From Escherichia phage 2G7b: DNA of 47,142 nt. Under the pieces are notes generated by a model, which worked only from the letters and a program-made list of their open reading frames with translations, made no database searches and was not told where the DNA came from. Where the stretch lies: the sequence record NC_049954.1. One strand, 5' to 3'. The position numbers and the translations under genes were made by a program. Shown piece after piece: positions 736-24,588 of the stretch (its first letter is position 1; each line of letters begins with the position of its first letter).

Positions 736-4416
<3,681 letters not shown>

Positions 4417-4436
<20 letters not shown>

Positions 4437-5736
4437 TCTCCCGCATATTGCCAGCATGGCCTTTAATGAGCCGCTGATGCTTGAACCCGCCTATGCGCGG
4501 GTTTTCTTTTGTGCGCTTGCAGGCCAGCTTGGGATCAGCCGCCTGACGGATGCAGTATCCGGCGACAGCCTGACTGCCCAGGAGGCACCCGCGGCGCTGG
4601 CGTTATCCGGTGATGATGACGGACCACGACAGGCCCGCAGTTATCAGGTCATGAACGGCATCGCCGTGCTGCCGGTGTCCGGTACGCTGGTCAGCCGGAC
4701 GCGGGCGCTGCAGCCGTATTCGGGAATGACCGGTTACAACGGCATTATCGCCCGTCTGCAACAGGCTGCCAGCGATCCGATGGTGGACGGCATTCTGCTG
4801 GATATGGACACACCGGGCGGGATGGTGGCGGGAGCATTTGACTGTGCTGACATCATCGCCCGTGTGCGAGACATAAAACCGGTATGGGCGCTGGCCAACG
4901 ACATGAACTGCAGTGCAGGTCAGCTGCTTGCCAGCGCCGCCTCCCGGCGTCTGGTCACGCAGACCGCCCGGACAGGCTCCATCGGCGTCATGATGGCTCA
5001 CAGTAATTACGGTGCTGCGCTGGAGAAACAGGGCGTGGAAATCACGCTGATTTACAGCGGCAGCCATAAGGTGGATGGCAACCCCTACAGCCATCTTCCG
5101 GATGACGTCCGGGAGACACTGCAGTCCCGGATGGATGCAACCCGCCAGATGTTTGCGCAGAAGGTGTCGGCATATACCGGCCTGTCCGTGCAGGCTGTGC
5201 TGGATACCGAGGCTGCAGTGTACAGCGGTCAGGAGGCCATTGATGCCGGACTGGCTGATGAACTTGTTAACAGCACCGATGCGATCACCGTCATGCGTGA
5301 TGCACTGGATGCACGTAAATCCCGTCTCTCAGGAGGGCGAATGACCAAAGAGACTCAATCAACAACTGTTTCAGCCACCGCTTCGCAGGCTGACGTTACT
5401 GACGTGGTGCAAGCGACGGAGGGCGAAAACGCCAGCGCGGCGCAGCCGGACGTGAACGCGCAGATCACCGCAGCGGTTGCGGCAGAAAACAGCCGCATTA
5501 TGGGGATCCTCAACTGTGAGGAGGCTCACGGACGCGAAGAACAGGCGCGCGTGCTGGCAGAAACCCCCGGAATGACCGTGGAAACGGCCCGCCGCATTCT
5601 GGCCGCAGCACCACAGAGTGCACAGGCGCGCAGTGACACTGCGCTGGATCGTCTGATGCAGGGTGCACCGGCACCACTGGCTGCAGGTAACCCGGCATCT
5701 GATGCCGTTAACGATTTGCTGAACACACCAGTGTAA
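4417..5736 (+). CDS. C: head protease/scaffold protein C (GTG start)
   Basis: In-frame GTG at 4417 gives MTAELRNLPHIASMAFNEPLMLEP.., the recognised gpC N-terminus; the longer tool ORF from 4282 is an upstream extension in the B overlap. Confidence 0.85.
5341..5736 (+). CDS. nu3: scaffolding protein Nu3 (in-frame internal start within C)
   Basis: Internal ATG giving MTKETQSTTVSATASQADVTDVV.. in the C frame, as in lambda. Confidence 0.75.
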   Translation: MTKETQSTTVSATASQADVTDVVQATEGENASAAQPDVNAQITAAVAAENSRIMGILNCEEAHGREEQARVLAETPGMTVETARRILAAAPQSAQARSDTALDRLMQGAPAPLAAGNPASDAVNDLLNTPV

Positions 5737-15500: not shown

Positions 15501-18500
15501 ATGGGTAAAGGCAGCAGTAAGGGGCATACTCCGCGCGAAGCGAAGGACAACCTGAAGTCCACGCAGTTGCTGAGTGTGATCGATGCCATCAGCGAAGGGC
15601 CGATTGAAGGTCCGGTGGATGGATTAAAAAGCGTGCTGCTGAACAGTACGCCAGTGCTGGACAGTGAGGGGAATACCAACATCTCCGGCGTCACGGTGGT
15701 GTTCCGGGCCGGTGAGCAGGAGCAGACACCGCCGGAGGGATTTGAATCCTCCGGCTCCGAGACGGTGCTGGGTACGGAAGTGAAATACGACACGCCGATC
15801 ACCCGGACCATCACGTCGGCAAACATTGACCGACTGCGTTTTACCTTCGGCGTGCAGGCACTGGTGGAAACCACCTCAAAGGGGGACAGGAATCCGTCGG
15901 AAGTCCGCCTGCTGGTTCAGATACAGCGTAATGGTGGCTGGGTGACGGAAAAAGACATCACCATTAAGGGCAAAACCACCTCGCAGTATCTGGCCTCGGT
16001 GGTGGTGGGTAACCTGCCGCCGCGCCCGTTCAGTATCCGGATGCGCAGGATGACGCCGGACAGCACCACAGACCAGCTGCAGAACAAAACGCTCTGGTCG
16101 TCATACACCGAAATCATCGATGTGAAACAGTGCTACCCGAACACGGCACTGGTCGGCGTGCAGGTGGACTCGGAGCAGTTCGGCAGCCAGCAGGTGAGCC
16201 GTAATTATCATCTGCGCGGGCGTATTCTGCAGGTGCCGTCGAACTATAACCCGCAGACGCGGCAATACAGCGGTATCTGGGACGGAACGTTTAAGCCAGC
16301 ATACAGCAACAACATGGCCTGGTGTCTGTGGGATATGCTGACCCATCCGCGCTACGGCATGGGGAAACGTCTTGGTGCGGCGGATGTGGACAAATGGGCG
16401 CTGTATGTCATCGGCCAGCATTGCGATCAGTCGGTGCCGGACGGTTTTGGCGGCACGGAGCCGCGCATCACCTGTAATGCGTACCTGACCACACAGCGCA
16501 AGGCGTGGGATGTGCTCAGTGATTTCTGCTCGGCGATGCGCTGTATGCCGGTATGGAACGGGCAGACGCTGACGTTCGTGCAGGACCGACCGTCGGATAA
16601 GGTGTGGACCTATAACCGCAGTAATGTGGTGATGCCGGATGATGGTGCGCCGTTCCGCTACAGCTTCAGCGCCCTGAAGGACCGCCATAATGCCGTTGAG
16701 GTGAACTGGATTGACCCGAATAACGGCTGGGAGACGGCGACAGAGCTTGTGGAGGACACGCAGGCCATTGCCCGTTACGGTCGTAGCGTCACGAAGATGG
16801 ATGCTTTTGGCTGTACCAGCCGGGGGCAGGCACATCGCGCCGGGCTGTGGCTGATTAAAACAGAACTGCTGGAAACGCAGACCGTGGACTTCAGCGTGGG
16901 TGCCGAAGGGCTTCGCCATGTACCGGGCGATGTCATTGAAATCTGCGATGATGACTATGCCGGTATCAGCACCGGCGGGCGCGTGCTGGCGGTAAACAGC
17001 CAGACCCGGACGCTGACGCTCGACCGTGAAATCACGCTGCCATCTTCCGGCACCACGCTGATAAGCCTGGTTGACGGGCAGGGGAGTCCGGTCAGCGTGG
17101 AGGTTCAGTCCGTCACCGACGGCGTGAAGGTAAAAGTGAGCCGTGTTCCTGACGGCGTTGCCGAGTACAGCGTGTGGGGGCTGAAGCTGCCGACGCTGCG
17201 CCAGCGCCTGTTCCGCTGTGTGAGTATCCGTGAGAACGATGACGGTACGTATGCCATCACTGCCGTGCAGCATGTACCGGAGAAAGAAGCCATCGTGGAT
17301 AACGGGGCGCACTTTGACGGTGACCAGAGCGGCACGGTGAATGGTGTCACGCCGCCAGCAGTGCAGCATCTGACCGCAGAAGTCACTGCAGACAGCGGGG
17401 AATACCAGGTGCTGGCGCGCTGGGATACGCCGAAGGTGGTGAAGGGGGTGAGCTTTATGCTTCGCCTGACCGTGGCAGCGGATGACGGCAGTGAGCGGCT
17501 GGTCAGCACGGCCCGGACGACGGAAACCACTTACCGCTTCACGCAACTGGCGCTGGGAAACTACAGGCTGACAGTCCGGGCGGCAAATGCCTGGGGGCAG
17601 CAGGGCGATCCGGCGTCGGTATCGTTCCGGATTGCCGCACCGGCAGCGCCATCTCGGATTGAGCTGACGCCGGGCTATTTTCAGATAACCGCCACGCCGC
17701 ATCTTGCCGTTTATGATCCGACGGTACAGTTTGAGTTCTGGTTCTCGGAAAAGCGGATTACCGATATCAGGCAGGTTGAAACCACAGCCCGCTATCTTGG
17801 CACGGCGCTGTACTGGATAGCTGCCAGTATCAATATTAAGCCGGGCCATGATTATTATTTTTACGTTCGCAGTGTGAACACCGTTGGCAAATCGGCATTC
17901 GTGGAGGCCGTCGGTCGGGCGAGCGATGATGCGGAAGGTTACCTGGATTTTTTCAAAGGCAAGATAACCGAATCCCATCTCGGCAAGGAGCTGCTGGAAA
18001 AAGTCGAGCTGACGGAGGATAACGCCAGCAGACTGGAGGAGTTTTCGAAAGAGTGGAAGGACGCCAACGATAAGTGGAATGCCATGTGGGCTGTCAAAAT
18101 TGAGCAGACCAAAGACGGCAAACATTATGTCGCGGGGCTTGGCCTCAGCATGGAGGACACGGAGGAAGGCAAACTGAGCCAGTTCCTGGTTGCCGCTAAC
18201 CGTATCGCATTTATTGACCCGGCAAACGGGAATGAAACGCCGATGTTTGTGGCGCAGGGCAATCAGATATTCATGAACGAAGTGTTCCTGAAATATCTGA
18301 CGGCTCCCACCATTACCAGCGGCGGTAATCCTCCGGCATTTTCCCTGACACCGGACGGGCGGCTGACGGCGAAAAATGCCGATATCAGCGGTAACGTGAA
18401 TGCGAACTCCGGGACGCTCAACAACGTCACGATTAACGAGAACTGCCGGGTTCTGGGAAAACTGTCCGCGAACCAGATTGAAGGCGATCTCGTTAAAACA

Positions 18501-18896
18501 GTGGGCAAAGCTTTCCCCCGTGACTCCCGAGCACCGGAGCGGTGGCCATCAGGGACCATTACCGTCAGGGTTTATGACGATCAGCCGTTTGACCGGCAAA
18601 TTGTTATTCCGGCGGTGGCATTCAGTGGCGCTAAGCATGAGAGAGAGCATACTGATATTTACTCCTCATGCCGTCTGATAGTGCGGAAAAACGGTGCTGA
18701 AATTTATAACCGTACCGCGCTGGATAATACGCTGATTTACAGTGGCGTTATTGATATGCCTGCCGGTCACGGTCACATGACACTGGAGTTTTCGGTGTCA
18801 GCATGGCTGGTAAATGGCTGGTATCCCACAGCAAGTATCAGCGATTTGCTGGTTGTTGTGATGAAGAAAGCCACTGCAGGCATCACGATTAGCTGA
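15501..18896 (+). CDS. J: central tail fibre / host specificity protein J
   Basis: 1131-aa ORF in lambda gene order; recognised gpJ sequence. Confidence 0.95.
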
Positions 18897-18963: not shown

Positions 18964-19563
18964 ATGCGTAAATTATGTGCTGTTATTCTGTCCGCAGTAG
19001 TCTGGCTGGTTGCCGCTGGTACGCCAGCGAGCGCAGCAGAGCATCAGTCCACACTAAGCGCCGGGTATCTTCAGACCCATACTGATATGCCAGGCAGTGA
19101 TGACCTGAAGGGCATTAACGTGAAATACCGTTATGAATTTACGGACACGCTGGGGCTGGTGACGTCATTCAGTTATGCCAATGCCAAAGATGAGCAAAGA
19201 ACGCATTACAGCGATACCCGCTGGCATGAAGATTCAGTGCGTAACCGCTGGTTCAGCATGATGGCGGGGCCATCTGTACGCGTGAATGAATGGTTCAGTG
19301 CTTATGCGATGGCAGGTGTGGCTTACAGCCGTGTTTCGACGTTCTCCGGGGATTATCTCCGCGTAACTGACAACAAGGGGAAAACGCACGATGTGCTGAC
19401 CGGAAGTGATGACGATCGCCACAGCAACACGTCTCTGGCGTGGGGAGCTGGCGTGCAGTTTAACCCGACCGAATCCGTGGCCATTGATATTGCTTATGAA
19501 GGCTCCGGCAGTGGCGACTGGCGCACTGACGGTTTCATCGTGGGTGTCGGTTATAAGTTCTGA
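18964..19563 (+). CDS. lom: Lom-like outer membrane protein (Ail/Lom/PagC family)
   Basis: 199-aa ORF with signal peptide MRKLCAVILSAVVWLVAAGTPASA and C-terminus ..AIDIAYEGSGSGDWRTDGFIVGVGYKF as in lambda Lom; N-terminal two thirds diverged. Confidence 0.85.
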   Translation: MRKLCAVILSAVVWLVAAGTPASAAEHQSTLSAGYLQTHTDMPGSDDLKGINVKYRYEFTDTLGLVTSFSYANAKDEQRTHYSDTRWHEDSVRNRWFSMMAGPSVRVNEWFSAYAMAGVAYSRVSTFSGDYLRVTDNKGKTHDVLTGSDDDRHSNTSLAWGAGVQFNPTESVAIDIAYEGSGSGDWRTDGFIVGVGYKF

Positions 19564-19616: not shown

Positions 19617-19627
19617 GTGGAGTGGAT

Positions 19628-22003
19628 ATGGCAGCAGTAAAAATCTCAGGTGTGCTGAAAGATGGTGCGGGAAAACCAATACAGAACTGCACTATTCAAC
19701 TGAAGGCAAAGCGTAACAGCACCACGGTACTGGTGAACACGGTGGCTTCTGAAAATCCGGATGAAGCCGGACGTTACAGCATGGATGTTGAGTATGGCCA
19801 GTACAGCGTCACCCTGCTGGTTGAAGGTTTTCCGCCTTCACATGCCGGGACCATTACCGTCTATGAAGGCTCCAGACCAGGTACGCTGAATGATTTTCTC
19901 GGTGCCATGACGGAAGATGATGTCATGCCGGAGGCATTGCGTCGTTTTGAGGAAATGGTGGAAGAAGCGGCACGCAACGCTGAAGCCGCCTCTCAGAGCG
20001 CAGCGGCGGCAAAGAAATCCGAAACTGCAGCGGCATCATCGAAGAACGCGGCGAAAACCTCAGAAACGAATGCAGCTAATAGTGCACAGGCGGCAGCGAC
20101 CTCAAAGACTGCATCGGCAAACTCCGCGACAGCAGCCAAAAAATCAGAAACCAACGCGAAAAATAGCGAGACAGCCGCAAAGACGAGCGAAACCAACGCA
20201 AAGTCCAGCCAGACGGCAGCGAAAACCAGCGAAACGAATGCCAAAGCCAGTGAAACTGCGGCAAAAAACAGCCAGGTTGCAGCAGCCCAAATCGAGAGCG
20301 CGGCAGCCGGTTCTGCGACTTCAGCAGCTGGATCAGCAACTGCTGCGGCTAACAGCCAGAAAGCTGCGAAGACGAGTGAAACTAACGCAAAGTTCAGCCA
20401 GACGGCAGCGAAGACCAGCGAAACGAATGCCAAAGCCAGCGAAACTGCGGCGAAAAACAGTCAGGATGCAGCAGCCCAAAGCGAGAGTGCTGCAGCTGGT
20501 TCTGCAAGCGCGGCGGCTGCTTCTGCCACTGCATCAGCCAACAGTCAAAAAGCAGCAAAAACCAGTGAAACCAATGCAAAGACAAGCGAGACTGCAGCGG
20601 CGAACTCGGCGAAAGCATCGGCAGCAAGCCAGACAGCAGCTAAAGCAAGTGAAGACGCAGCCAGAGAGTATGCAAGTCAGGCAGCAGAGCCGTATAAATA
20701 TGTCTTACAGCCGCTGCCTGATGTGTGGATACCATTTAACGATTCGCTGGATATGATTACGGGCTTTTCGCCATCATATAAAAAAATTGTTATTGGTGAC
20801 GATGAAATAACGATGCCTGGCGACAAGATTGTTAAGTTTAAACGTGCATCGAAAGCAACCTATATTAACAAATCTGGTGTGCTGACAGAGGCTGCCATTG
20901 ACGAGCCACGATTTGAACGTGATGGCCTGCTTATTGAGGGGCAAAGAACAAACTACATGCTCAATTCGGAAAGCCCTGCAAGTTGGGGGCGATCATCAAA
21001 TATGGATGTGCCCGAAACAGGGACGGATAATTTTGGTTTTACCTATGGAAAGTTTGTCTGCAACGATTCTCTGATTGGGCAAACCTCAGCCATTAATATG
21101 GCATCAATTGCTGCAACAAAGTCAGTTGATGTCTCAGGCGATAATAAACACGTGACAACCTCATGTCGTTTTAAAACAGAACTGCAGGTAAGGTTGCGTA
21201 TCCGGTTTGATAAATATGACGGTAGCACAACAACTTTTCTTGGTGATGCGTATATTGATACACAAACGCTTGAAATTAATATGACAGGCGGTGCTGCCTC
21301 AAGAATTACAGCGAGAGTCAGAAAGGACGAAGCTACCGGATGGATTTTTGCAGAGGCAACAATTCAGGCAATTGATGGGGAGTTAAAAATAGGCTCTCAG
21401 ATACAGTATTCTCCTAAGCAGAGCGGGGCAACCGTATCTGGTGACTATATTTATCTGGCCACCCCACAAGTAGAAGATGGGCCTTGTGTATCATCTTTTA
21501 TTATATCAGGAGCGACGGCGGCGACCCGCGCAAGCGATATAGTTACAGTTCCAATTAAGAATAATCTTTATAATCTTCCTTTTACGGTTCTTTGTGAGGT
21601 ACATAAGAACTGGTATAAAACGCCAAATGCAGCGCCACGTGTTTTTGATACCGGCGGTCATCAAACCGGAGCGGCTATTATTCTTGGCTTCGGTCGTTCA
21701 ACAGATTACGACGGATTTCCTTATTGCGATATTGGAGGAGCTAACAGACGGGTAAACGAAAACGCATCGCTTGAAAAAATGGTTATGGGGATGCGTGTAA
21801 AGTCAGAGCAGTCTACGTGCTCAGTAAGTAACGGGCATATATCCAGCGAAACAAAAACCACATGGTCCTGTATTCAGAACACCGCAATTATCCGTATTGG
21901 AGGCCAGACTACAGCCGGGTTACGTCATTTATTTGGTCATGTCAGGAATTTTAGAATATGGCACAAGGCATTGACTGATGCTCAGGTGGGGGAGTCAATC
22001 TAA
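19628..22003 (+). CDS. stf: side tail fibre protein, mosaic: lambda Stf-like N-terminal half with repeat region, non-lambda C-terminal domain
   Basis: N-terminus MAAVKISGVLKDGAGKPIQNCTIQLKAKRNST.. and KTSETNAK/SETAAK repeats match lambda Stf; C-terminal ~400 aa (..YKYVLQPLPDVWIPFNDSLDMITGF.. to ..RNFRIWHKALTDAQVGESI) does not. Confidence 0.8.
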   Translation: MAAVKISGVLKDGAGKPIQNCTIQLKAKRNSTTVLVNTVASENPDEAGRYSMDVEYGQYSVTLLVEGFPPSHAGTITVYEGSRPGTLNDFLGAMTEDDVMPEALRRFEEMVEEAARNAEAASQSAAAAKKSETAAASSKNAAKTSETNAANSAQAAATSKTASANSATAAKKSETNAKNSETAAKTSETNAKSSQTAAKTSETNAKASETAAKNSQVAAAQIESAAAGSATSAAGSATAAANSQKAAKTSETNAKFSQTAAKTSETNAKASETAAKNSQDAAAQSESAAAGSASAAAASATASANSQKAAKTSETNAKTSETAAANSAKASAASQTAAKASEDAAREYASQAAEPYKYVLQPLPDVWIPFNDSLDMITGFSPSYKKIVIGDDEITMPGDKIVKFKRASKATYINKSGVLTEAAIDEPRFERDGLLIEGQRTNYMLNSESPASWGRSSNMDVPETGTDNFGFTYGKFVCNDSLIGQTSAINMASIAATKSVDVSGDNKHVTTSCRFKTELQVRLRIRFDKYDGSTTTFLGDAYIDTQTLEINMTGGAASRITARVRKDEATGWIFAEATIQAIDGELKIGSQIQYSPKQSGATVSGDYIYLATPQVEDGPCVSSFIISGATAATRASDIVTVPIKNNLYNLPFTVLCEVHKNWYKTPNAAPRVFDTGGHQTGAAIILGFGRSTDYDGFPYCDIGGANRRVNENASLEKMVMGMRVKSEQSTCSVSNGHISSETKTTWSCIQNTAIIRIGGQTTAGLRHLFGHVRNFRIWHKALTDAQVGESI

Positions 22004-22284
22004 TGAAAGATTTAACACTCAAATTTGCCGACAGGGCCGACTTTTCGGCCTTTATGGAGAGTATTGGCTATTATGATGACGAGTCGATGCAGGATGATAT
22101 TCTTATTGACGTGATAGGTAACGCGTACAAAGAAACCGGAGAACTGACTGAAGATGGCGAACCGGTATGTGTTAAGGAAGACGGATATTTTGTAAACGTG
22201 CGCATCATTAATGATTCGCAAATATCGTCATTATTCGATGAATACGTGGTTGCTGTTGAGCATCAACTTCGTGGCTGGATGTGA
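22003..22284 (+). CDS. hypothetical acidic 93-aa protein, start overlaps stf stop
   Basis: ORF MKDLTLKFADRADFSAFMESIGYYDDESMQDD..; ATGA overlap with stf suggests translational coupling; no family recognised. Confidence 0.5.
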   Translation: MKDLTLKFADRADFSAFMESIGYYDDESMQDDILIDVIGNAYKETGELTEDGEPVCVKEDGYFVNVRIINDSQISSLFDEYVVAVEHQLRGWM

Positions 22285-22293
22285 GGAAGAAAA

Positions 22294-23331
22294 ATGGCTA
22301 CATCGACAGTAATTCCTGATGACATCAAAACGCTAAAATCCGACGTTAGCAAATTAAAAAACGATCAAGGAAGCTACGCAACAAAATTATATGTAGACAG
22401 CAAAGATGAAATCGTTGGTGACTGGTCTGCTTCATGGTATCAGCAGGTATTGCCAACTAGCGGAGCTATATTTGGGAGAAAACTCCGCTCAACTCACAGG
22501 ACGGCAGGTGTTGAGGATGCGTATTGCGAACTATACCTCAAAAAATGGATAGACAGTCCAGGTAACGCAATGGCGCGCCTTAACCTGAACGATAACGGGA
22601 CAAACATTTGCTGGGACTCTACCAACCTTTATGGCGGTACGATGATTTTTCCCGGTGACAGCGGATACCTCAAAATGGGTAACTGCCTTATGTCATACAG
22701 CAAGCGTGGAAGTAACGCGCTTATTAAATTTGATTACACCGACACATTACAGATCAAATATGCCAATCATGGGTCAACCATGACATTAAACACACAGGGA
22801 ACCGCTTATGCTGGTGTTACTGCTCAATTGTGGGGCAACTCCAGCCGTCCTGTTGTTTATGAAGTCGGTGTTGATGGTGGCGCTTATATGTTCTATGCGC
22901 AGAAAAATACCGATAACACCTATATGTTAAGCGTTAATGGTGCATGTCATGCCACCACATTTAACCAGCATTCCGACCGGGATCTGAAAGACAACATTCA
23001 GGTGATCGATAATGCAACCGACCGCATCCGTAAAATGAACGGCTATACATACACGCTTAAAGAAAACGGTATCCCCTATGCTGGTGTCATTGCACAGGAA
23101 GCTCTGGAAGCAATCCCAGAAGTTGTAGGTTCCGCAATGAAATATCAGGACGGTGCAAGCGGATCGGAAGGTGAAGAAGGTGAACGTTATTACACAGTAG
23201 ATTATTCTGGTGTTACTGGCTTGCTTGTTCAGGTAGCCAGAGAGTCAGACGACAGGATAACAGCACTGGAAGAAGAAAACGCAGAATTAAGACAAAGATT
23301 ATCTGCAATTGAGGCGGCGCTTGCGTCTTAA
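22294..23331 (+). CDS. tail-fibre-tip-like protein with C-terminal intramolecular-chaperone (peptidase S74-like) domain
   Basis: 345-aa ORF; C-terminal ~110 aa (..HSDRDLKDNIQVIDNATDRIRKMNGYTYTLKENGIPYAGVIAQEALEAIPEVV..coiled-coil ALEEENAELRQRLSAIEAALAS) resembles the autocleaving chaperone domain of endosialidase/L-shaped tail fibres. Confidence 0.6.
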   Translation: MATSTVIPDDIKTLKSDVSKLKNDQGSYATKLYVDSKDEIVGDWSASWYQQVLPTSGAIFGRKLRSTHRTAGVEDAYCELYLKKWIDSPGNAMARLNLNDNGTNICWDSTNLYGGTMIFPGDSGYLKMGNCLMSYSKRGSNALIKFDYTDTLQIKYANHGSTMTLNTQGTAYAGVTAQLWGNSSRPVVYEVGVDGGAYMFYAQKNTDNTYMLSVNGACHATTFNQHSDRDLKDNIQVIDNATDRIRKMNGYTYTLKENGIPYAGVIAQEALEAIPEVVGSAMKYQDGASGSEGEEGERYYTVDYSGVTGLLVQVARESDDRITALEEENAELRQRLSAIEAALAS

Positions 23332-23361
23332 TAATATTAAGGGGTCGAGCGCCCCGTTTTA

Positions 23362-23670
23362 TTGGGTAGGATGAAAATGGATATAACACCTTTCCTTCAT
23401 GCGCTTTGTGCTGTGGCTGCGCAGCTACTGATTGGTCTTTTTACCGGGAACTGGGCTTACGGGGCGATAGCCGGTTGTACGTTCTTCATTGCGCGTGAAC
23501 ACACCCAGGCAGAATATCGCTGGATTGAAATGTTCGGGCATGGCAAGCGAATGAATATGCCGTGGTGGGGCGGTTTTGATCCGCGCGCGTGGGATGTAGC
23601 AAGTCTGATGGATTTTGCTGTGCCGGTGGTGGCGTGTCTGCTGGTCTGGCTGTTGGTTAATCGTGGGTGA
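23362..23670 (+). CDS. hypothetical small membrane protein (two hydrophobic segments)
   Basis: 102-aa ORF with hydrophobic stretches LHALCAVAAQLLIGLFTG and FAVPVVACLLVWLLV; no family recognised. Confidence 0.45.
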   Translation: MGRMKMDITPFLHALCAVAAQLLIGLFTGNWAYGAIAGCTFFIAREHTQAEYRWIEMFGHGKRMNMPWWGGFDPRAWDVASLMDFAVPVVACLLVWLLVNRG

Positions 23671-23680
23671 AAAAAGGTGA

Positions 23681-23809
23681 GCTGTATATGCAACGGAGGA
23701 AGAAACCTCGTTGCTGGAAGCCTGGAAGAAGTATCGGGTGTTGCTGAACCGTGTTGATACATCAACTGCACCTGATATTGAGTGGCCTACGAACCCTGTC
23801 AGGGAGTAA
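23681..23809 (+). pseudogene. tail fibre assembly (tfa) C-terminal remnant, copy 1
   Basis: 42 codons ..[39 protein letters not shown], the conserved Tfa C-terminus; preceded by an in-frame stop so no N-terminal part. Confidence 0.75.
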
Positions 23810-23863: not shown

Positions 23864-24532
23864 CTATTTTTTCCCTGAAGCGGAAAACATTACTACAGTA
23901 CCTTGAACCTTGGTTTTAACATTCTCGAAATGCTCTGAGAGTATATGTGTTAAGCCTTCTTCGGAATCTTTTGTGTTTGAAAAGATGCCTTTCTGATTGT
24001 AAATGCGCATCAGTTTTTGACCGAAGCTATTGTGCACAACTCCATCGCCAAGAATTGTGGCTCCGTATAGAGTTCCATCGTCAGTTAAGGCCTGCGCCGC
24101 ATTGCGTATTACACAGCTTTTTGTAGATATATTTCCAGGCAGGCAGTGAAGAAGGTAAAACATGGAAATGGAATCAAATTGACCATGTAACGCTGCGGGA
24201 TAAGGTTCAAAAACATCATGGCTAATTTTATGTTTAATTTTTGATTCCCCAGCCCTTGTAGATGCCGCGTTCAGGCTAGCTTCGTTCAAATCCATTAAAG
24301 ATATCAGACTACTCTCAGGTACGTGAGTAAGGTAAAACCCAGTTCCAACACCAATATCCAGATGGTTGTTACCTAAATGTTCCAGAAAGTGTGGAAGAAG
24401 GTGTTCCTTTGTAGGACATCCCCATGCAAGCCGATTTGATACTCCCAAAACCCACCAGTCATAAAGCTTTAGGGTAAGTGGTGTGTAAATTTTAGCCCCA
24501 TCATCTGTGTTTTTTTTCATTAATTTCACCAT
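23864..24532 (-). CDS. ybcY: class I SAM-dependent methyltransferase (DLP12 ybcY-like)
   Basis: 222-aa ORF with motif I HLDIGVGTGFY; flanked by tfa remnants as ybcY is between tfaD and tfaX in K-12 DLP12 (from memory). Confidence 0.65.
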   Translation of the reverse strand: MVKLMKKNTDDGAKIYTPLTLKLYDWWVLGVSNRLAWGCPTKEHLLPHFLEHLGNNHLDIGVGTGFYLTHVPESSLISLMDLNEASLNAASTRAGESKIKHKISHDVFEPYPAALHGQFDSISMFYLLHCLPGNISTKSCVIRNAAQALTDDGTLYGATILGDGVVHNSFGQKLMRIYNQKGIFSNTKDSEEGLTHILSEHFENVKTKVQGTVVMFSASGKK

Positions 24533-24588
24533 GTTATAGTTTTATTTGTGAATTAAATCAATTATGGCGATGAATTACAAGGGGTTAA

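What the first reader, a model, noticed from the sequence alone, without database searches (positions are those of the whole stretch)
19628..23670. Mosaic receptor-binding module: lambda Stf N-terminus fused to a foreign C-terminal domain, followed by a fibre-tip protein with an autocleaving chaperone domain
The 793-aa fibre keeps the lambda Stf N-terminus and the KTSETNAK repeat region, but its C-terminal ~400 aa are unrelated to lambda Stf. Instead of an intact tfa chaperone, the next genes are a 93-aa acidic protein (start overlapping the fibre stop), a 345-aa protein whose C-terminus looks like the intramolecular-chaperone (peptidase S74-like) domain of endosialidase/L-shaped tail fibres, and a 102-aa membrane protein. 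Only tfa fragments remain downstream. This suggests host range was retargeted by swapping the distal fibre module for one with a different folding strategy.
Basis: partly seen in the sequence, partly recalled or inferred. Interest (0 to 1): 0.6.

Follow-up and report, generated by a model that had tools for sequence, protein, structure and literature searches.

The report
Two-part side tail fibre cassette

Summary
All four ORFs, the 1-nt stop/start overlap, the repeats and the downstream tfa scraps are there. The fibre (19628-22003) has the lambda Stf N-terminus (PF08400; 58% identity to lambda orf-401). From aa 361 on it shows no similarity to lambda Stf.

The 345-aa protein carries Peptidase_S74 (E 7e-14). 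An invariant Ser227/Lys232 pair aligns with the MyRF/endoNF catalytic dyad.

The cassette 20708-23331 is low-GC (0.42-0.45 against 0.53-0.57). It is 94% identical in a virulent Nonagvirus, and variants occur in T1-like and P2-like phages. The whole module is about 98% identical in phages Tritos, HannyBb and PhiR63_1, and is present in 372 of 5426 complete E. coli genomes.

Comparison of about 130 loci shows a conserved "socket": the junction, the 93-aa protein and the first ~16-32 aa of the third protein. The lectin domains and distal tips are swapped independently of it.

The membrane protein is a separate moron, not part of the module. The role of the 93-aa protein (adaptor or chaperone) is unresolved.

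Verdict: real, functional, a new member of a known kind, of modest interest.

The parts
19628..22003 (+). Side tail fibre gene (791 aa from ATG; alternative GTG start at 19622). It has a lambda Stf-type N-terminus and shaft fused to a foreign C-terminal module.
   Evidence: ORF. Full-length match to phrog_1419. RefSeq name 'prophage tail fiber N-terminal domain-containing protein'.
19634..20023 (+). Tail-attachment domain of the fibre (aa 3-132).
   Evidence: Pfam PF08400 phage_tail_N, E 7e-67. 58% identity to lambda orf-401.
20165..20599 (+). Ala/Ser/Thr/Lys-rich shaft repeats (the KTSETNAK motif): 189-nt unit x 2.3 copies, with 21- and 42-nt sub-repeats.
   Evidence: Tandem Repeats Finder. 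Translation.
20708..20977 (+). Conserved junction of the C-terminal module (fibre aa 361-450, QPLPDVWIPFNDSL...EPRFE.DGLLIEGQRTN). It is the recombination joint and a candidate docking or trimerisation region.
   Evidence: 68-100% identity across 130 loci while neighbouring domains vary. Similarity to ESCO3 DNA begins exactly at 20708. pLDDT 31-45 in the monomer model.
20930..21532 (+). Lectin-type beta-sandwich domain 1 (fibre aa 435-635), the 'GTA head spike fiber' domain. Hypervariable between prophages.
21575..22000 (+). C-terminal domain 2 (fibre aa ~650-791), mainly beta-strand and tentatively LamG-like. Variable body with the conserved end GGQ..G.RHLFGH.RN.RIWHK.L.
   Evidence: AF2 model mainly beta-strand, pLDDT 46-84 and below 56 over the last ~40 aa. 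Sub-threshold Pfam Laminin_G_3 at CTD aa 375-427, E 0.005. 33-100% identity among loci, assorting independently of domain 1.
22003..22284 (+). p93: small acidic alpha/beta protein, translationally coupled to the fibre. It is an obligate companion of the lectin-type C-terminal module (adaptor or assembly factor).
   Evidence: TAATG overlap. phrog_1361. Follows the module in lambdoid, Nonagvirus, T1-like and P2-like contexts. AF2 pLDDT 87. No informative fold or family match. 49 cluster representatives in 1.84 billion proteins.
22294..23331 (+). p345: short distal fibre with a C-terminal S74 intramolecular chaperone.
   Evidence: phrog_4563 'tail fiber protein', full length. RefSeq 'tail fiber domain-containing protein'. 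In phrog_6578 the same tip is the C-terminus of a 1210-aa single-chain Stf-type fibre.
22294..22389 (+). Conserved N-terminal peptide of the distal fibre (aa 1-32, MATSTVIPDDIKTLK...), the inferred docking segment.
   Evidence: 66-100% identity while the rest of the gene is replaced by 224-234-aa S74 types or by a Tfa-dependent gp34/gp37-type tip.
22972..23331 (+). S74 intramolecular chaperone / autoprocessing domain (aa 227-345). Ser227 is the codon at 22972-22974 and Lys232 the codon at 22987-22989. Predicted cleavage is between His226 and Ser227.
   Evidence: Pfam PF13884, E 7e-14. S227 and K232 are invariant in all variants. The profile hits the MyRF ICA domain 7DC3 (E 2e-8) and S16 gp37 6F45 (E 2.5e-8), with S227/K232 on the S587(A)/K592 positions. 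Dyad and cleavage site as in PMC8326128.
19590..19611 (+). Terminator-like hairpin between lom and the fibre gene (upstream edge of the unit).
   Evidence: Scan: 8-bp stem, 7 GC pairs, T-run. The overall count of such sites is not above the shuffled expectation.
23341..23355 (+). Terminator-like hairpin just after p345. It separates the fibre unit from the membrane-protein gene.
   Evidence: Scan. Sequence read.
23377..23670 (+). p97/p102 small membrane protein. A neighbour and backbone moron, listed because the finding included it; not part of the fibre cassette.
   Evidence: GC 0.537. Absent from the ESCO3, tinuso and P2-like cassettes. An 80%-identical homologue lies after the tailspike of P22-like phage Gally. 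Two hydrophobic segments.
23690..23806 (+). Remnant of a lambda-type tfa gene (last 39 codons).
   Evidence: tblastn, 90% identity to lambda Tfa aa 156-194. RefSeq pseudogene.
24726..24812 (+). Second tfa remnant.
   Evidence: tblastn, 86% identity to lambda Tfa aa 154-182. RefSeq pseudogene.

Best explanation
Window 19628-23331 encodes a bipartite, probably branched, side tail fibre of a functional lambdoid phage.

**Proximal protein (791 aa).** It anchors to the tail tip through the lambda Stf-type N-terminal domain and extends an Ala/Ser/Thr/Lys-repeat shaft. From aa 361 it ends in a foreign module: a conserved ~90-aa junction followed by hypervariable beta-sandwich domains, at least the first of ConA/LamG/pentraxin type. 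These are homologous to the capsule-binding head-spike fibre of the Rhodobacter gene transfer agent. They most likely bind surface glycans (O-antigen or capsule).

**p93.** A translationally coupled 93-aa acidic protein always accompanies this module.

**Distal protein (345 aa).** Its conserved N-terminal ~16-32 residues dock it onto the conserved junction and/or p93. Its body (aa ~40-226) is a second receptor-binding tip. Its C-terminal S74 domain (aa 227-345) drives trimerisation and then cuts itself off at His226/Ser227 using the Ser227-Lys232 dyad. This leaves a ~25-kDa mature fibre subunit and makes a Tfa chaperone unnecessary.

**Origin.** The block 20708-23331 is a mobile low-GC cassette exchanged by recombination in the conserved junction. 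It moves between lambdoid, 9g-like, T1-like and P2-like phages, and its lectin domains and distal tips are shuffled independently.

**Shown here:** gene anatomy, family memberships, the dyad, fold type, cassette boundaries, and the pattern of conservation and variation.

**Inferred:** glycan binding, physical docking of p345 on the Stf C-terminus or p93, actual autocleavage, and the role of p93.
For: - Anatomy and overlaps.
- PF08400 and Peptidase_S74 above Pfam cutoffs.
- Full-length PHROG tail families for all genes.
- No similarity to the lambda Stf C-half; tfa only as remnants.
- NF048003 domain above cutoff and Rcc01080 sequence match. Rcc01080 mediates capsule binding (PMC7296036).
- S227/K232 are invariant and aligned to the MyRF S587/K592 = endoNF S911/K916 dyad.
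- Cassette GC is 0.42-0.45 against flanks of 0.53-0.57.
- 94% nt identity to virulent Nonagvirus ESCO3 exactly over 20708-23262.
- The same three-gene order occurs in T1-like phage tinuso and, with a Tfa-dependent tip, in a P2-like prophage.
- In 80 + 51 IMG/VR loci the junction, p93 and the first 32 aa of the third gene are conserved, while domain 1, domain 2 and the third-gene body assort independently.
- The module is about 98% identical in phage records Tritos, HannyBb and PhiR63_1.
- phrog_6578 shows the p345 tip fused in a single chain to an Stf-type N-terminus.
- Two-protein and branched lateral fibres with IMC tips, and a lectin-like domain on the proximal subunit, are described for T5-like phages: PMC4728585, PMC10713586, and the BASEL paper.
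Against: - No direct evidence that p345 or p93 are virion components, or that p345 binds the Stf C-terminus. No multimer prediction could be run.
- Phage-21-type loci (47 of 47) keep a p92 homologue but have no third gene. So p93 cannot be solely an adaptor for the distal fibre.
- The strict link between type-A p93 and a third gene could reflect physical adjacency rather than function.
- The C-terminal module model is only moderate overall (pLDDT 67). The junction is unmodelled and domain 2 is at 46-84.
- The Pfam Laminin_G_3 hit is below threshold.
- No ligand can be inferred from sequence.
Confidence: 0.75

Rival explanations
1. p93 is only a folding/trimerisation chaperone for the 791-aa fibre, a functional replacement of Tfa that is not in the virion. 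The distal fibre docks directly on the conserved junction or the conserved C-terminal strands of the fibre.
For: - A p92/93 homologue follows every copy of the lectin-type module, including 47 of 47 phage-21-type loci that lack a third gene.
- It is translationally coupled to the fibre.
- The fibre has neither an IMC domain nor a Tfa, so something must nucleate its trimer.
- The junction is unmodelled as a monomer.
Against: - No similarity to Caudo_TAP or any chaperone family.
- In lambdoid loci the type-A p93 is always followed by a third gene and type B never is. That hints at a link to the distal fibre.
Confidence: 0.4
2. The C-terminal 431 aa of the big fibre is merely a structural platform for the distal fibre. 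The only receptor-binding element is p345.
For: - The N- and C-terminal ends of the module are conserved.
Against: - Domains 1 and 2 are hypervariable (29-100% identity) among otherwise near-identical prophages, as expected of receptor-binding domains.
- Phage-21-type fibres have the module and no distal fibre at all.
- It is homologous to a capsule-binding GTA fibre.
Confidence: 0.12
3. p345 is an independent tail fibre or spike that attaches elsewhere on the tail tip. It is only genetically linked to the Stf gene.
For: It has its own RBS and a distinct N-terminal coiled-coil-like segment. Attachment has not been shown.
Against: The same N-terminal peptide is kept in lambdoid, 9g-like and T1-like siphoviruses and in a P2-like myovirus. 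Their tail tips and baseplates are of different kinds (established knowledge of these phage groups; not compared here), so the only shared candidate partners seen at these loci are the lectin-type module and p92/93.
Confidence: 0.08
4. The region is decayed prophage debris, with pseudogenised or non-functional fibre genes.
For: tfa fragments and other pseudogenes lie immediately downstream.
Against: - All three ORFs are intact and coupled.
- The module is about 98% identical in deposited phage genomes, and 94% identical in a virulent phage recorded with host E. coli DH5a.
- 372 genomes carry it at 80% coverage or more.
Confidence: 0.03

Closest known systems
Phage lambda (Ur-lambda) side tail fibre Stf with its chaperone Tfa
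   Same: Same genomic position after J and lom. Same N-terminal tail-attachment domain (PF08400) and Ala/Ser/Thr-rich shaft, with 58% identity over ~330 aa.
   Different: From aa 361 there is no similarity to lambda Stf. There is no gp37-like tip and no functional tfa, only two remnants. It ends instead in lectin-type domains, followed by p93 and an S74 fibre.
Phage 21 / mEp460 / ev017-type side tail fibre (Stf + 92-aa protein + membrane protein)
   Same: Same Stf N-terminus and the same lectin-type C-terminal module (71% identity; domain 1 roughly 90% or more by eye). A homologous 92-aa protein (54%) and a 96%-identical membrane protein follow.
   Different: Phage 21 has no third, S74 fibre gene (47 of 47 loci of that type). 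Domain 2 is diverged.
Lateral tail fibre cassette of Nonagvirus vB_EcoS_ESCO3 (and VogelGryff, tinuso)
   Same: C-terminal module + p93 + S74 fibre at 94% nt and 91-96% aa identity, in the same gene order. The T1-like phage tinuso has the same trio with a 224-aa S74-type tip.
   Different: Virulent phages with other backbones and a shorter shaft. No membrane-protein gene downstream.
Branched L-shaped tail fibres of T5-like phages (DT57C LtfA/LtfB; BASEL IrisVonRoten Gp22-24)
   Same: A proximal fibre that anchors to the tail carries a second, exchangeable fibre protein with an IMC-type tip. A lectin-like (galectin-like) domain on the proximal subunit is described for IrisVonRoten.
   Different: No sequence relationship was detected here. 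The proximal C-terminus is GTA-spike-fibre-like. A dedicated 93-aa partner is present. Attachment has not been shown.
Peptidase S74 / intramolecular chaperone auto-processing domains (endosialidase endoNF, T5 pb1, S16 gp37, MyRF)
   Same: Pfam match above threshold. Ser-x4-Lys dyad aligned to MyRF S587/K592 = endoNF S911/K916. C-terminal helical segment present.
   Different: The mature part is very short (226 aa; about 100-115 aa in the sister variants). No detectable sequence similarity to endosialidase or T5 pb1 receptor-binding domains.
RcGTA head spike fibre Rcc01080
   Same: Homologous domain (PDB sequence match E 1e-7; NCBIfam NF048003 above cutoff). Rcc01080 mediates binding to capsule polysaccharide.
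   Different: In RcGTA it is a 325-aa monomer on capsid vertices, attached by an N-terminal Leu-Gly peptide. Here it is the C-terminus of a tail fibre.

Membership tests
Lambda-type side tail fibre (Stf) | N-terminal prophage tail fibre domain (PF08400), in the position after J and lom | tested here: met
   PF08400 E 7e-67, aa 3-132. Gene order J-lom-fibre. 58% identity to lambda orf-401.
Lambda-type side tail fibre (Stf) | gp37-like C-terminal tip folded by a separate Tfa (Caudo_TAP) chaperone | tested here: not met
   No similarity to lambda orf-314. Only two tfa fragments, of 39 and 29 codons. No Caudo_TAP hit for p93.
Peptidase S74 / intramolecular chaperone auto-processing domain | Match to the family profile above the curated threshold | tested here: met
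   PF13884, 52.3 bits against 22, aa 227-278. The profile hits MyRF ICA 7DC3 and S16 gp37 6F45 at E ~2e-8.
Peptidase S74 / intramolecular chaperone auto-processing domain | Catalytic Ser-Lys dyad (Ser-x4-Lys) at the start of the domain | tested here: met
   S227 and K232 are invariant in 7 divergent variants. They align to MyRF S587(A)/K592, which is equivalent to endoNF S911/K916 (PMC8326128).
   Both structure-prediction jobs went to the fibre C-terminus and p93. Sequence alignment to two solved ICA-domain chains covers aa 215-339.
Peptidase S74 / intramolecular chaperone auto-processing domain | Trimerisation-dependent self-cleavage releasing the C-terminal domain | not testable with these tools
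   Needs protein expression with S227A/K232A mutants, or virion mass spectrometry.
GTA head spike fibre domain (NCBIfam NF048003) | Match to the family profile above the curated cutoff | tested here: met
   50.3 bits against 36, fibre aa 435-635. phmmer hit to Rcc01080 (6TB9), E 1e-7 over ~245 aa.
GTA head spike fibre domain (NCBIfam NF048003) | Binding of surface polysaccharide | not testable with these tools
   Known for RcGTA (PMC7296036). Here it is only inferred from homology, fold and hypervariability.
Concanavalin A-like lectin / LamG / pentraxin fold | Jelly-roll beta-sandwich superposable on family members | tested here: met
Concanavalin A-like lectin / LamG / pentraxin fold | Pfam Laminin_G_3 profile match | tested here: inconclusive
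   17.3 bits against cutoff 27.6, E 0.005, covering only the last 53 aa.
Branched two-protein lateral tail fibre (DT57C LtfA/LtfB type) | Second fibre protein lacks a tail-attachment domain and is encoded next to the anchoring fibre | tested here: met
   p345 has no PF08400. It lies 290 nt downstream of the fibre gene. Its N-terminal peptide is conserved across unrelated tail types.
Branched two-protein lateral tail fibre (DT57C LtfA/LtfB type) | Physical attachment of the second protein to the first | not testable with these tools
   No multimer prediction was available. The inference is comparative only.
Tail fibre assembly chaperone (Caudo_TAP / Tfa), as a candidate family for p93 | Profile or fold similarity to Tfa-type chaperones | tested here: not met

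The most novel reading that the evidence does not exclude
The conserved junction of the fibre (aa 361-450), the 93-aa protein and the ~16-32-aa N-terminal peptide of the third protein form a universal plug-and-socket. It would let unrelated phages (lambdoid, T1-like and 9g-like siphoviruses, and P2-like myoviruses) hang interchangeable distal fibres on a lectin-tipped proximal fibre. Those distal fibres may be S74-folded or Tfa-folded. The result would be a dual-specificity branched fibre, with p93 as a previously undescribed adaptor class.
Probability: 0.35. Interest if true: 0.5.

Novelty: new member of a known kind. Interest (0 to 1): 0.3.

Why it matters
Side and lateral tail fibres set the first, reversible step of host recognition. 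They are the parts most often re-engineered for phage therapy and for lambda-based DNA delivery, including lambda-Stf chimeras such as the S74-bearing K1F fusion (PMC11338833).

This cassette is a natural, very common example of such engineering: 372 of 5426 complete E. coli genomes carry it. It has a clear recombination joint at fibre aa 361 and independently swappable lectin domains and distal tips.

If the junction/p93/N-terminal-peptide socket is confirmed, it would offer a ready-made, chaperone-independent way to mount new receptor-binding tips on lambda-type particles. It would also assign a function to a small orphan protein family (phrog_1361).

As it stands, the finding is a correct description of an ordinary mosaic fibre locus, not a new kind of system.

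Tried and rejected
1. **Structure prediction with IMG/VR-derived rows.** I rebuilt the alignment from eligible rows.
2. **Second homologue search with a profile of divergent C-terminal modules.** This was meant to deepen the alignment. It returned nearly the same proteins, at 75% identity or more, so the model of the junction and domain 2 stayed weak.
4. **T5 pb1 or endosialidase structures as sequence relatives of p345.** Neither was found even at E <= 1. Only the IMC part is recognisable.
5. **Membrane protein as part of the module, for example a fibre-linked exclusion factor.** Rejected as a cassette member on GC content, the intervening terminator-like hairpin, its absence from non-lambdoid cassettes, and its presence after a P22-type tailspike. 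Its function stays unknown.
6. **Literature.** Nine searches found no paper describing this three-gene cassette. They found only general statements that small-siphovirus lateral fibres may consist of one or several proteins.
7. **Antisense and alternate-frame ORFs over the repeat region** (for example 19917-20756). Dismissed as composition artefacts.

Full report
**Context.** The window is a lambdoid prophage of Escherichia coli. The 4.1-kb query around the finding is 100% identical to several complete E. coli chromosomes. At 80% coverage or more it is present in 372 of 5426 complete genomes. It lies after the tail-tip gene J (15501-18896) and lom (18964-19563). It lies before a stretch of cargo genes and the integrase.

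**Checking the observation.** The ORFs are as described.
- The fibre gene runs 19628-22003: 791 aa from the ATG that matches lambda's MAVKISG start, or 793 aa from an upstream GTG.
- A 93-aa ORF runs 22003-22284. Its ATG shares one base with the fibre's TAA (TAATG). Its pI is 4.05.
- A 345-aa ORF runs 22294-23331, behind a GAGGAAG ribosome-binding site.
- A small hydrophobic ORF runs 23362 or 23377 to 23670.
- Pfam places phage_tail_N at aa 3-132 of the fibre (E 7e-67) and Peptidase_S74 at aa 227-278 of the 345-aa protein (52.3 bits against a cutoff of 22).
- BLASTP against lambda gives 58% identity between fibre aa 3-329 and orf-401. Nothing matches orf-314, the C-terminal half of Ur-lambda Stf.
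- The KTSETNAK region is a 189-nt x 2.3 tandem repeat with 21- and 42-nt sub-periods.
- tblastn with lambda Tfa finds only two C-terminal scraps, at 23690-23806 and 24726-24812. RefSeq also marks these as pseudogenes.

**What the foreign C-terminus of the fibre is.** Residues 361-791 hit the head spike fibre Rcc01080 of the Rhodobacter capsulatus gene transfer agent (PDB 6TB9, E 1e-7, ~245 aligned residues). They also hit the NCBIfam domain model NF048003 "GTA_spike_fiber" above its cutoff (aa 435-635). In RcGTA that protein is a flexible monomer that mediates attachment to the capsule polysaccharide (PMC7296036).

The big fibre therefore does not end in a trimeric gp37-like tip that needs a chaperone. 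It ends in lectin-type globular domains.

**The 345-aa protein.** Beyond the Pfam hit, an alignment of seven variants shows Ser227 and Lys232 to be invariant, even between forms with 29% overall identity. A profile of that alignment finds two solved intramolecular-chaperone domains: mouse MyRF (7DC3, E 2e-8) and Salmonella phage S16 gp37 (6F45, E 2.5e-8). Ser227 and Lys232 sit on the positions of MyRF S587 (Ala in the crystallised mutant) and K592. Those residues are the catalytic dyad, equivalent to endoNF S911/K916, and MyRF is cut just before the serine (PMC8326128).

By analogy, p345 would be cut between His226 and Ser227. That yields a 24.9-kDa mature subunit and a 13-kDa released chaperone. 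I did not predict its structure because both prediction jobs went elsewhere.

PHROG family 6578 (1210 aa) matches both the fibre's N-terminal region and p345 aa 131-341 at its own C-terminus. So the same tip also exists as the end of single-chain Stf-type fibres.

**A mobile cassette.**
- GC content is 0.44, 0.42 and 0.45 for the fibre C-terminus, p93 and p345. It is 0.53-0.57 for J, lom, the fibre's N-terminal part and the membrane-protein gene.
- The virulent Nonagvirus vB_EcoS_ESCO3 shares exactly window 20708-23262 at 94% nucleotide identity. In ESCO3 the stretch forms the C-terminus of its lateral tail fibre, a 93-aa protein and an "endosialidase chaperone" protein.
- The T1-like phage tinuso has the same trio with a 224-aa third protein.
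- On a P2-like prophage contig, the module sits on a fibre with a P2-type N-terminus (PF12571/PF03406) and is followed by a 92-aa homologue. An uncalled third gene follows. It keeps the same N-terminal peptide but continues as a gp34/gp37-type tip, and a Caudo_TAP chaperone gene comes next.
- The complete lambdoid version is about 98% identical in the deposited phages Tritos, HannyBb and PhiR63_1. The genes are therefore functional.

**Conserved socket, variable parts.** I compared 80 IMG/VR loci holding a p93 at 92% identity or more.
- Conserved: the Stf N-terminus; the junction (fibre aa 361-460, 68-100% identity); p93; the first 32 residues of the third protein (66-100%); and the membrane protein.
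- Variable: lectin domain 1 (29-100%), domain 2 (33-100%) and the body of the third protein. These vary independently of one another.

The third protein comes in three forms. One is the 345-aa type, which has two N-terminal subtypes. One is a 227-234-aa type that also carries Peptidase_S74 (27.3 bits). The third is the Tfa-dependent type seen in the P2-like context.

The N-terminal peptide MAT(S/V)T(V/T)IP.DI..LK survives in sipho- and myovirus contexts, whose tail tips and baseplates are of different kinds. The only partners common to all these loci are the lectin-type module and p92/93. The distal fibre therefore most probably docks there. This is a comparative inference, not a demonstration.

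**The 93-aa protein.**
- It has no Pfam or NCBIfam family.
- It belongs to a tiny family: 49 cluster representatives among 1.84 billion proteins, almost all stand-alone proteins of 85-110 aa.
- It gives a confident alpha/beta model (pLDDT 87).

Phage 21 and relatives carry the same fibre architecture (71% identity over the C-terminal module), a 54%-identical 92-aa protein and the membrane protein. They have no third gene. In 47 of 47 such IMG/VR loci the membrane-protein gene starts 16 nt after p92.

So p92/93 is tied first of all to the lectin-type module. It may act as a trimerisation or assembly factor, since the fibre has neither an IMC nor a Tfa. It may act as a structural cap or adaptor, or as both. 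In lambdoid loci the type-A p93 is always followed by a third gene and type B never is. That fits an adaptor role, but it could equally reflect the two genes lying 9 nt apart. I could not separate these readings.

**The membrane protein.** It is not part of the cassette, for four reasons.
- It has backbone GC (0.537).
- It follows a terminator-like hairpin at 23341-23355.
- It is missing from the non-lambdoid cassettes.
- An 80%-identical homologue lies downstream of the tailspike in the P22-like phage Gally, in the classic moron position before the integrase.

Its function is unknown.

**Comparison with what is known.** Mosaic Stf genes, IMC-bearing fibres and two-protein or branched lateral fibres are all established.
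- DT57C LtfA/LtfB: PMC4728585 and PMC10713586.
- BASEL phages with a lectin-like domain on the proximal subunit and IMC-tipped distal fibres.
- Maffei et al. state that lateral fibres of small siphoviruses may consist of one or several proteins.
- Engineered lambda-Stf chimeras, including a fusion to the S74-bearing K1F spike, work on lambda particles (PMC11338833).

In nine literature searches I found no paper that describes this particular trio. PHROGs, NCBIfam and RefSeq already hold and name its parts. I therefore rate it a new member of a known kind.

The most novel reading still open is that the junction, p93 and the N-terminal peptide form a general plug-and-socket for interchangeable distal fibres across unrelated phage groups. 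I give that about 0.35.

Noticed in passing
window 23377-23670 (alternative TTG start 23362): Small two-segment membrane protein, 92-100% conserved in lambdoid prophages with this fibre type. It sits behind a terminator-like hairpin (23341-23355). An 80%-identical homologue lies after the tailspike gene of P22-like phage Gally. Distant homologues lie next to tail-fibre genes in Halomonas and Aeromonas phages. It looks like a moron (exclusion or conversion factor?) of unknown function.
   Followed up: partly
window 23690-23806 and 24726-24812: Two C-terminal fragments of a lambda-type tfa gene. In phage Tritos the first fragment is followed by a PinR-type invertase gene, so these may be scars of an invertible fibre segment or of earlier fibre-module exchanges.
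   Followed up: partly
window 23864-27695, minus strand: Cargo genes between the fibre genes and the integrase: a class I SAM-dependent methyltransferase (23864-24532), a 494-aa alpha/beta hydrolase with a hydrophobic N-terminus that may be a signal peptide (25071-26555), and an omptin (OmpT-like) outer-membrane protease (26742-27695). GC falls to 0.35-0.44.
   Followed up: no
L091-L140 (IMG/VR loci of phage-21 type) against L007-L086: A strict dichotomy. The phage-21-type 92-aa protein is never followed by a third fibre gene (47 of 47; the membrane gene starts 16 nt later). The type-A 93-aa protein is followed by one in every locus long enough to tell.
   Followed up: yes
L087, about 2556-3467: On a P2-like prophage contig the public gene call misses an ORF of ~303 aa. 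It carries the conserved N-terminal peptide of the third protein fused to a Gp34_trimer/gp37-type tip, and is followed by a Caudo_TAP chaperone gene.
   Followed up: yes
L112, about 2340-4890: One IMG/VR locus has ~2.5 kb inserted inside domain 2 of the fibre gene, possibly an insertion sequence.
   Followed up: no
window 19917-20756 (+) and 19993-20627 (-): Long alternate-frame and antisense ORFs (up to 279 aa) over the fibre's repeat region. They are composition artefacts of the Ala/Lys/Thr/Ser repeats, not genes.
   Followed up: partly
window 20708-20947 (fibre aa 361-440): The best-conserved stretch of the C-terminal module is the least confident part of the monomer model (pLDDT 31-45). 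This suggests it folds only in the trimer or in complex with a partner.
   Followed up: no
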